Assembly (NCBI GenBank): GCA_001938485.1 | Contig: MQRK01233142.1 | Span: 74,140-138,139, forward strand | DNA: 64,000 bases | DNA from: Girardia tigrina | Lineage: Eukaryota | Direction: 5' to 3' | In this document: positions 1 to 1,924 of the stretch, in pieces | Layout of the letters: every line of letters starts with the position of its first letter | Position numbering within the stretch: the stretch's first letter is position 1 | Position numbers and translations under genes: made by a program | The notes under the pieces: generated by a model | Databases searched by the model: none | What the model was told of the DNA's origin: nothing | The model's input: only the letters and a program-made list of their open reading frames with translations

Positions 1-640
1 TTCAACACATTTAAATAATTTTCACTTCTCATGGTGGTGTTTGGAGGCAAGAACTTAATGTGCACTTAATGTGTAGAAAATGTGAAAGTCAACAGACTTT
101 TGTCCACAGCTGTATACTTTCTAGAGAAGTCATATATATATATATATATACAATATGGATTTTATTATTTATAACTTGTTCAGAAAGTTATGTACAAAAC
201 TGATATGTTTAAAAATAATTTATATAAATTATTCTTCACATTGTCTTATAATTAAAAAAAATATAAATAAAAGTAAGTTACTGAAAAAATTTTACATTTT
301 TATTGTTCTTCTTGATTAAACATTCCTTTGATGTGTGAGATTTTTCACAAAATAGCTGGAGAAGAAAATCTTTGTTATCCGTGCTTCTATAAGATACATA
401 AACAAGTGATTTTCATGTGTAAAATTTTATATCAAATTAATTTATTTGAAATATATTACTAGTTAAAATAATGATATTTTTGAAGGAGTTGTAATTTATT
501 GTTTAATAAAAATAATAAAAATTATTTTGATAGAGTTGAATTGAAAACTCTTTCAAACATTTAACATCTGACTTCAGCTCTATTAATTTACTCACAAAGT
601 AAAATCTTTATGCAAATCAAAATACAAAGGATAAAAAGAA

Positions 641-679
641 GACGATGCGTTTCGATATAAAAATCCAATCATCAGGTTT
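641..679 (-). ncRNA. Minimal type-I hammerhead ribozyme (ACGCGT family, decayed)
   Basis: Minus strand: aac CTGATGA ttggatttttatatc GAA a-cgca-t C gtc. Core intact, helix II irregular. Confidence 0.65.
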
Positions 680-837
680 ATCTACACCATGTATTAAACT
701 AACACTGTATTTTGGATTATACTATAATTAAAAACATTTTACCAATAAATCATTGTATTAAAATGAATTTATTTCATTTTTCTAAAAATTAAGCAACGAT
801 ACACTAAACGCGATCAATTGTATTTTTGCAATCTAAC

Positions 838-1144
838 TGTAAGGATGTGTGAATTATTATTATTATGGTTGTTAATTATTATTGAAATTATTATTATAAA
901 CATATTATTATTATTATTAGATGTGTAAAGTATGTGTGATTATGAAGTATGAAATTGAGTAACAGGAATGAGAGTTTGATGATATGATGTATGTATGTAA
1001 TAGTGTTCGGTGTCAATCATGTGGTGCTAACCCAGCAGATCTCCCTAATCCAGTTATGCAACCGGATCGAGGTATATAAGATAGAATGTTTAGTTTATTA
1101 TTGTATTATTAATATATCTTAGCAAATAATCTGGTCTCTTAACA
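838..1144. mobile_element. Solo LTR of an LTR retrotransposon nested in the HHR repeat
   Basis: Begins TGTAAGGA and ends TCTTAACA (TG...CA), flanked by perfect 5-bp TSD CTAAC (833-837, 1145-1149). Removing it restores the host arm's match to 1616-1890. TATATAAG at ~1073. Confidence 0.8.
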
Positions 1145-1838
1145 CTAACCACAGGCAGTTATCAATTGACGTTTATGAAAACAACATGATTACTCTATCT
1201 TATTGTTCTTTACAAGGTAACGAAGACATATAATAATGATAATAATTGACAGTAAACCAAAATCTAATCAATTAGATGAAACTTCTATCACTCAATGCAA
1301 TCCTCTTAATTTTAGCCTTCACATCAAACCCAAAACAATTTGAAATTTCATCGATGCAATTCGACTGAAATGTGTGACCAAATGGCAATCTGGTAGACGA
1401 ATGTGTTCTCTCAACTGCACCAGGTTTGAGAATTGTGACACTCAGTATAATAACACATTCGGTCAGTGCAAGATAATCACCCACCGACAAAATAAATTTC
1501 ATTTTGAATTTCTTTGGTTTTTCGAAAGCGATCAAAAAATTATTGATTTTATCGTCAAAATATAAACATCACAAAGTGAAATCTATATAAAAATCTAGAT
1601 ACAATAGATAAAAGTAAAGTACGGAACGATAGGGTAAACATATCATTTTCTCAAATGGCAATTGATAGCTGCCAGTGGTTGGTTTGCGAGAATGGAATTG
1701 ATCCCGTTTAGGATAATTTTGCTTAATTTTTATAAAAATGAAATAAATTCATTTTAATACAAAGATTAATTGGTAAAATGTTTTTTTAATTATATTATAG
1801 TCCGGAATAATATGTTAGTTTAATACATGGTGTGGATT

Positions 1839-1877
1839 GACTTGATAATTGGAGTTTTATATCGAAACGCATTGTCT
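1839..1877 (+). ncRNA. Degenerate hammerhead ribozyme (ACGCGT family)
   Basis: gac TTGATAA ttggagttttatatc GAA a-cgca-t t gtc; two core substitutions, probably inactive. Confidence 0.55.
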
Positions 1878-1924
1878 TCTTTTTATCCATTAAGCATTAA
1901 ATATTAATTTAATTACAATTTAAA

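What the first reader, a model, noticed from the sequence alone, without database searches (positions are those of the whole stretch)
626..1890. Second copy of the HHR element with the same inverted architecture and the same inversion start point
Seen: ~275-bp arms in inverted orientation, each ending in an HHR. In both loci the + arm starts at the same word (AAAGTACGGAA, 1616 and ~51608). The minus unit stops at (copy 1) or just past (copy 2) an internal HHR. Inference: either the fold-back composite is itself the amplified unit, or inversion occurs reproducibly at a fixed pLTR boundary. A transcript from either strand would carry a ribozyme and form a long dsRNA stem. The element mimics a MITE but is probably a retroelement.
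Basis: partly seen in the sequence, partly recalled or inferred. Interest (0 to 1): 0.7.

Follow-up and report, generated by a model that had tools for sequence, protein, structure and literature searches.

The report
Inverted Penelope-type ribozyme retroelement copies
These are two old, independent back-to-back insertions of a very common small jumping element that carries a self-cutting RNA motif, likely pasted by Penelope retrotransposon enzymes; the layout is already described and the 'fixed' flip point is only a weak preference, but elsewhere in the genome a second jumping gene inserts at one exact site inside this element.

Summary
The inverted arms and hammerhead (HHR) motifs are real. 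Both loci are decayed copies (about 81% alike, unrelated flanks) of a 652-nt non-autonomous Penelope-like (PLE) unit with well over a thousand copies. The + arms do not start at the same point: they start 2 nt and about 15-27 nt upstream of the shared word, which is internal sequence (82 of 90 genomic occurrences run on upstream). About 106 head-to-head junctions are scattered over the whole unit, so neither an amplified composite nor a fixed boundary holds; only a mild 5'-end excess lies just upstream of the word (15 vs 6 expected, p about 0.02). What is fixed is the 3' end (HHR, with or without a 24-nt tail, into (TA)n). This layout is published, and the scan noted similar inverted PLE stubs before. 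Extras found here: head-to-head chimeras with other PLE families (4 of 50), pointing to two templates; an open frame longer than the unit; and a NeSL/R5-LIN-type LINE whose 3' end sits at one site of this element (227 of 506 ends carry the exact 8-nt target; 23 of 30 sampled loci are in the family), a target I did not find described.

The parts
590..625 (-). Copy 1: tail extension beyond the outer HHR of the long (minus) unit, with a short insertion
   Evidence: 1569-1613 matches 592-636; tail word seen on the minus strand
626..837 (-). Copy 1: distal part of minus arm (monomer 65-275), ending in an HHR motif (core at 675-650; core intact, stem III palindrome broken)
838..1144 (.). Later insertion, 307 bp, TG...CA ends, 5-bp target duplication CTAAC (833-837, 1145-1149); solo-LTR-like (inferred from ends and duplication only)
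1145..1213 (-). Copy 1: proximal part of minus arm (monomer 1-70)
1214..1613 (-). Copy 1: body of the monomer (about 262-652); its 5' end lies just 3' of the HHR, at the tail-less 3'-end site
1614..1890 (+). Copy 1: inverted 5'-truncated copy (monomer 651 to 273), no tail; HHR motif about 1835-1890 with U3/A8
50514..50598 (-). Copy 2: outer end of minus arm with HHR motif (core 50558-50533), abutting a (TA)n tract
50599..51011 (.). Later insertion, 413 bp, short terminal inverted repeats and an 8-bp target duplication with one mismatch (50591-50598, 51012-51019); hAT-type MITE-like (inferred from duplication length)
51012..51590 (-). Copy 2: rest of minus arm, body and internal HHR motif (51521-51590, G12 changed)
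51581..51958 (+). Copy 2: inverted copy starting at monomer ~626-638, through a damaged HHR (G8 and G12 changed) and on into the body to about monomer 400

Best explanation
Each locus is an independent, old insertion of a 652-nt repeat with a minimal hammerhead, likely a non-autonomous Penelope-like retroelement copied in trans by a PLE reverse transcriptase/GIY-YIG protein, and the inverted layout likely arises when both nicked strands of an AT-rich target prime reverse transcription at the element's two fixed 3' sites and the two 5'-truncated cDNAs are joined head to head. Shown: unit length and copy abundance; fixed 3' ends at monomer ~274-282 (no tail) or ~298-304 (tail) running into (TA)n; scattered 5' ends; frequent head-to-head pairs, often one tailed and one tail-less arm; junctions between this family and other PLE families. 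Inferred: the enzyme, the double priming, the joining step, and that the mild excess of 5' ends at monomer 630-3 marks an RNA 5' end or an RT pause, which would explain why both window copies break near the same word.
For: Abundance: 4674 and 2988 first-look candidates; 855 and 728 exact matches to 29- and 30-nt family words. HHR-to-HHR spacing peaks at 651-653 (9 of 23 natural direct repeats). Fixed 3' ends plus (TA)n in the HHR-anchored sample. 50 distinct uncensored pieces of that sample (71 hits; 19 cut by contig ends or N, 2 duplicates): 21 have an inverted family partner, 4 an inverted piece of another PLE family (L151, L159, L189, L216), 25 none. About 106 head-to-head junctions with 5' ends in every 50-nt bin of the unit. 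Tail on one arm only in 12 of 16 pairs with both ends callable (p = 0.033). The RT/GIY-YIG family at window 14280-15300 has the same plan: minimal HHR with palindromic stem III, two 3' ends, (TA)n. Three other PLE remnants in the window also show inverted ends. Literature passages: inverted 5'-truncated copy and one-sided tail are typical (PMC8557442, PMC3846280); a PLE protein cleaves and extends both strands and initiates at two adjacent internal sites that define the tail (PMC11167929).
Against: No autonomous element with clear sequence homology to the unit was found; only a short shared motif and the shared plan link it to the 14-kb family. Some pairs have an arm that ends at an arbitrary internal point close to the partner's start (L081, L105, L331, L338), which fits twin priming on one RNA rather than two canonical sites. 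90 of 106 pairs could not be scored for the tail, and the end caller is a rough pattern match. In copy 2 neither arm ends at a canonical site. The 5'-end excess was measured in the young subfamily, not the older one the window copies belong to, and the coding family shows no such cluster at the shared motif in a small sample (1 of about 14 uncensored ends).
Confidence: 0.75

Rival explanations
1. The fold-back composite is itself the amplified unit (first reader, option 1).
For: Six of the best hits to the copy 1 query share the general plan, arm starting at monomer 612-651 joined to a unit starting at 262-294.
Against: Those hits were ranked by a query that held this plan, and every one has a different junction; the two window copies differ at both breakpoints; about 106 distinct junctions.
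Confidence: 0.03
2. Inversion happens at a fixed pLTR boundary, e.g. the transcription start (first reader, option 2). In strict form false; in weak form the 25 nt upstream of the word is a preferred stop.
For: 15 of the 5' ends among 67 distinct pieces fall in monomer 630-3 against 6.1 expected; scan-corrected p about 0.02 from 400 simulations. A similar motif lies in the 3' UTR of the coding PLE family.
Against: 82 of 90 occurrences of the word continue at least 12 nt upstream; 35 of 51 pieces that reach the word pass beyond monomer 627; the excess includes non-inverted ends; no cluster in the coding family sample.
Confidence: 0.1
3. One template makes both arms: self-priming/fold-back (as proposed for rotifer PLEs) or L1-style twin priming on a dimer-length RNA, the second primer using the 3' site of the upstream repeat.
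For: In copy 1 the + arm ends (273) where the minus unit begins (262-274); long units often begin at 262-280; several pairs show arm end close to partner start; self-priming was proposed from palindromic junctions (PMC3846280 passages). Twin priming is recalled from L1 work, not read here.
Against: Cannot make junctions between two different families (4 of 50); most pairs have unrelated start points with both arms at canonical 3' sites; the 262-280 cluster comes mostly from body-anchored searches and is not an unbiased count.
Confidence: 0.25
4. A MITE (non-autonomous DNA transposon) with long terminal inverted repeats.
For: Inverted arms of similar length, no enzyme, high copy number.
Against: Arm lengths vary freely, half of the pieces have no inverted partner, direct repeats are common, ends are polar (fixed 3', ragged 5'), and no constant target duplication is seen.
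Confidence: 0.02

Closest known systems
EN+ Penelope-like elements with an inverted 5'-truncated copy and one-sided tail (Craig 2021 PMC8557442; Arkhipova 2013 PMC3846280; passages read)
   Same: Partial tandems, head-to-head inverted copy, tail on one end, HHR in the repeat, AT-rich/microsatellite targets, heavy 5' truncation
   Different: No RT or endonuclease; 652-nt unit; tail about 24 nt rather than 30-40; junctions with other PLE families seen here
PAc (Poseidon, Anolis) in vitro (Frangieh 2024 PMC11167929; parts 1-2 of 4 read)
   Same: Two adjacent 3' ends downstream of the HHR; an ATG in the HHR core opens a reading frame; AT-rich targets
   Different: Here the frame is about 175 aa with no known domain; mechanism only inferred from genomic copies
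Minimal HHRs of metazoan PLEs (Cervera and De la Pena 2014 PMC4209133; passages read)
   Same: Type I core, palindromic stem III, short stem I, extra base before stem II
   Different: The five motifs in the window are all damaged
Non-LTR retrozymes (Cervera and De la Pena 2020 PMC7229834, passages; bioRxiv 10.64898/2026.07.22.740005, part 1 and passages)
   Same: Non-autonomous, AT-rich, type I HHR, PLE-linked
   Different: Unit 652 nt (reported 150-450), dispersed truncated pieces and partial dimers rather than arrays, minimal rather than canonical HHR, long open frame; circular RNA untested
NeSL clade, R5/LIN lineage of target-specific LINEs (Kojima and Jurka 2015 PMC4640811; passages and 8 places of S6 Fig read) - for the LINE found inside the family, not in the window
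   Same: Ulp1-like protease, RT, CCHC knuckle; precise 3' junction, ragged 5' junction; similar AATAAA-bearing 3' end
   Different: Reported LIN targets are 28S rRNA, tRNA-Arg and tRNA-Glu genes, with some copies in Polintons; here the main assembled target is one site of an HHR retroelement

Membership tests
Penelope-like element (non-autonomous) | Minimal type I HHR with palindromic stem III in the terminal repeat | tested here: met
   92 of 177 distinct family motifs read CTGATGA...CGAAACGCGTC; window copies damaged
Penelope-like element (non-autonomous) | Fixed 3' end, variable 5' truncation, partial tandems | tested here: met
Penelope-like element (non-autonomous) | Optional tail, often on one end only | tested here: met
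   two 3' ends about 24 nt apart; 12 of 16 scorable pairs mixed
Penelope-like element (non-autonomous) | Inverted 5'-truncated copy at the 5' end | tested here: met
   21 of 50 pieces; about 106 junctions
Penelope-like element (non-autonomous) | Sequence homology to an autonomous RT/GIY-YIG partner | tested here: inconclusive
   no tblastn or profile match; only a short shared motif, shared plan and chimeric junctions
Autonomous Penelope-like element | ORF with RT and GIY-YIG endonuclease | tested here: not met
Non-LTR retrozyme | Tandem arrays of 150-450-nt units, each with an HHR | tested here: not met
   652-nt unit; mostly single truncated pieces and partial dimers in the loci fetched; short contigs could hide arrays
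Non-LTR retrozyme | Abundant linear and circular monomer RNA made by HHR cleavage | not testable with these tools
   only contigs of runs available; family present in two RNA-labelled runs, no DNA control
MITE | Constant terminal inverted repeats and constant target duplication | tested here: not met
NeSL clade LINE (element inserted in the family) | RT with N-terminal Ulp1-like protease in one ORF | tested here: met
   RVT_1 and Peptidase_C48 above cut-off in L428:1335-4349
NeSL clade LINE (element inserted in the family) | C-terminal CCHC knuckle and restriction-like endonuclease | tested here: inconclusive
   CxxC...H...C and RHN words visible in L430 and L423 (motif meaning recalled); no Pfam hit for the nuclease
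NeSL clade LINE (element inserted in the family) | Target-site specificity | tested here: met
   227 of 506 3' ends preceded by the exact 8-nt target; 23 of 30 sampled loci in the family at monomer 412/413; weaker among long RT-bearing copies
NeSL clade LINE (element inserted in the family) | RT phylogeny within R5/LIN | not tested
   no reference sequences fetched; PDB search gives only generic L1/R2 hits

The most novel reading that the evidence does not exclude
The 652-nt hammerhead element is the hub of a three-layer parasitism: it rides on Penelope enzymes, which join cDNAs from two separate RNAs head to head (even across families), and it has itself become the dedicated landing site of a NeSL/R5-LIN-type LINE that inserts antisense at one nucleotide position and may be transcribed from it; its young subfamily also keeps an open frame longer than the unit, readable only on dimeric or circular RNA.
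Probability: 0.5. Interest if true: 0.6.

Novelty: new member of a known kind. Interest (0 to 1): 0.35.

Why it matters
The flagged layout is ordinary for Penelope-like elements, so the finding as written adds a family, not a principle. Two by-products matter more. Cross-family head-to-head junctions bear on an open question, how PLE inverted ends form, and favour two templates over self-priming. A restriction-like-endonuclease LINE that targets a ribozyme retroelement rather than an rRNA, tRNA, snRNA or spliced-leader gene would extend the known target range of this group, whose natural retargeting is of interest to people who study R2-type insertion; I did not find it in searches, but Repbase and most subscription papers were not searchable.

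Tried and rejected
Rfam: no family at gathering score in the window, only chance hits in four loci. Folding single HHR motifs gave no significant z-scores, as expected for dimer-type motifs. Autonomous parent: five hits with very long open frames were N runs; no EN/RT match to the unit; the coding family at 14.3-15.3 kb has no profile match to it. Protein from the open frame: nothing in Pfam, in the 5.8-billion search at near lengths (longer and shorter not searched) or in the Atlas; young versus old consensus differ at codon positions 14/10/11, so no sign of selection on amino acids, and the old consensus has stops in the arm part. Idea that long units start at the HHR cut site (monomer 256): ends cluster at 262-280, at the tail-less 3' site instead. 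Idea that the second 5'-end cluster (409-435) marks a longer parent: it is the LINE's 5' junction. Expression: only contigs were available; the family is present in RNA-labelled runs X5 and X8 and deep in X1 and X6 (type guessed), but no silent-stretch control was obtained, so expression is not claimed. Earlier-finding look-ups near the locus and by sequence returned nothing. No structure or complex prediction was run.

Full report
Observation. The window lies in a 1.43-Gb, about 25% GC genome. Self-comparison confirms inverted arms at 626-1890 and at 50514-51958. Copy 1 has a + arm 1614-1890 and a minus arm split by a 307-bp TG...CA insert with a 5-bp duplication (838-1144); copy 2 has a minus arm split by a 413-bp insert with terminal inverted repeats and an 8-bp duplication (50599-51011). 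Arms are 83% and 77% alike within copies; the copies are about 81% alike; flanks score no better than shuffles. The two loci are old, independent insertions.

The unit. Genome searches gave thousands of candidates (4674 and 2988, 40 scored each) and 855 and 728 exact matches to two family words. Read on the HHR strand, 'body' and 'arm' are one continuous 652-nt unit; natural HHR-to-HHR spacing is 651-653 in 9 of 23 direct repeats. I number the unit from the first A of AAAGTACGGAA; the HHR core is at 221-255. There is a young subfamily (about 93% pairwise) and older copies (about 75-80%), which include the window copies. The HHR is the minimal PLE type with a palindromic stem III (PMC4209133 passages). 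All five motifs in the window depart from the family form; two lose G12, so the claim of a ribozyme on either strand fails for copy 2 and is doubtful for copy 1 (that G12 is essential and that U3/A8 keeps some activity is recalled knowledge).

Is the inversion point fixed? No. The copy 1 + arm starts at monomer 651, the copy 2 + arm at about 626-638; the partner units start at about 262-274 and 204-217. Of 169 exact genomic matches to the start word I fetched 90, duplicates included: 82 continue at least 12 nt upstream in register and 8 begin within 10 nt of it. Over the loci mapped with a profile (L001-L236 and L277-L343, several of them ascertained with biased queries), about 106 head-to-head junctions remain after a rough de-duplication, and their 212 5' ends fall in every 50-nt bin. 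What is fixed is the 3' end: about 274-282 or 298-304, followed by (TA)n.

A weak preference does exist. In a sample anchored at monomer 50-79 (70 loci from the first 100 listed of 728 matches; 67 distinct pieces), 15 5' ends fall in 630-3 against 6.1 expected, scan-corrected p about 0.02; ends cut by contig edges, direct continuations and the 402-440 group were treated as censored. Flanks there are unrelated, so these are true ends. It may be an RNA 5' end or an RT pause; a similar motif lies in the 3' UTR of the coding PLE family at 14.3-15.3 kb, but that family shows no cluster there in a small sample.

Mechanism. In the HHR-anchored sample, 21 of 50 distinct uncensored pieces have an inverted family partner, 4 have an inverted piece of another, endonuclease-coding PLE family joined with little or no gap, and 25 have none (two pairs are counted from both arms). 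Where both outer ends can be read, 12 of 16 pairs carry the tail on one arm only (p = 0.033), as copy 1 does. The inverted copy and one-sided tail are described as typical of PLEs (PMC8557442, PMC3846280), and a purified PLE protein cleaves and extends both strands and starts at two adjacent sites that define the tail (PMC11167929). I therefore infer double priming at a nicked AT-rich target and joining of two truncated cDNAs. Cross-family junctions need two templates and argue against self-priming as the only route; a minority of pairs (L081, L105, L331, L338) and copy 1 itself also fit twin priming on one RNA. No autonomous parent with sequence homology was found.

Side result 1: a LINE that targets the unit. 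A second cluster of 5' ends at 409-435 and recurrent ends at 411-412 are the junctions of another element lying antisense in the unit. It encodes Ulp1-like protease, RT and a CCHC knuckle, the plan of NeSL-clade LINEs (PMC4640811 passages). Its 3' end abuts monomer 412 in 23 of 30 sampled loci, by my reading of the alignment and flank columns, in both young and old host copies; the other 7 are a tandem into its own 5' junction, a (TA)n tract and five unrelated sites. Genome-wide, 227 of 506 exact 3' ends are preceded by the exact 8-nt target. 5' junctions differ (at least ten kinds), so these are repeated insertions, though one junction is shared by five loci and could be a full-length end or an amplified composite. 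Against strict specificity: among 20 long RT-anchored copies, 12 had a recognisable 3' end and only 1 of these was clearly at the site, with 3 further loci showing family sequence at the 5' junction. Reported LIN targets are 28S, tRNA-Arg and tRNA-Glu genes, with some copies in Polintons; a collapsed rDNA target cannot be excluded. Neither window copy carries this LINE.

Side result 2: open frame. The young consensus has no stop in one frame across the whole unit; because 652 is 3n+1 the stop-to-stop frame is 273 codons, longer than the unit (0 of 2000 simulated sequences reach 175). An ATG in the HHR core opens about 175 codons, intact in many natural copies and open in the old consensus over the 157 codons compared, but substitutions show no codon bias and no homolog was found. 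It may be a relic of a PLE ORF start; it is unexplained.

Verdict. Papers were seen as passages or named parts as listed under Closest known systems; supplements of the bioRxiv preprint were not seen, and Repbase could hold this family or its LINE. Interest 0.35, mostly for the chimeric junctions and the LINE target.

Noticed in passing
L025, L163, L171, L198, L344-L371, L414-L433 (genome G000; not in the window): NeSL/R5-LIN-type LINE (Ulp1 protease, RT, CCHC) inserted antisense at monomer 412/413 of this HHR element: 227 of 506 3' ends have the exact 8-nt target; 23 of 30 sampled loci in the family; long copies are often off target.
   Followed up: partly
L015:84-803, L020, L221, L224 and the young subfamily generally: Open frame spanning more than one 652-nt unit; ATG in the HHR core; no homologs and no codon bias in substitutions.
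   Followed up: partly
L189:1325-1562, L216:170-636, L151:1-543, L159:271-505: Head-to-head junctions between this family and endonuclease-coding PLE families; L022 has the arm fused in direct orientation to PLE RT sequence.
   Followed up: partly
window 13577-15300, 23084-23728, 28878-29600, 33400-34160, 48180-49013, 57600-58100: Remnants of several RT/GIY-YIG PLE families, three with inverted ends and four with HHR cores; the 14-kb family has 2032 exact matches to its HHR word.
   Followed up: partly
window 838-1144: 307-bp solo-LTR-like insert with 5-bp target duplication inside the copy 1 arm.
   Followed up: no
window 50599-51011: 413-bp element with short terminal inverted repeats and 8-bp duplication (hAT-type MITE-like) inside the copy 2 arm.
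   Followed up: no
window 2150-2500: HHR core at 2213-2238 (+) next to a GIY-YIG-like fragment at about 2270-2450, 300 bp from copy 1; another PLE remnant.
   Followed up: no
L050:1377-2017, L072:1239-1838: Almost exact unit-length copies (274 to 288-304) with (TA)n at the 5' side, as a circular or unit-length template might give.
   Followed up: no
runs X5 and X8 laid on L028:1337-2134: One dominant variant covers 300-400 nt of the unit in two RNA-labelled metatranscriptome runs, which also hold both LINE junctions; no DNA control.
   Followed up: no
window 9953-10243 and 41827-42162: Open frames that look like mariner/Tc1 transposase fragments (recalled resemblance, not searched).
   Followed up: no
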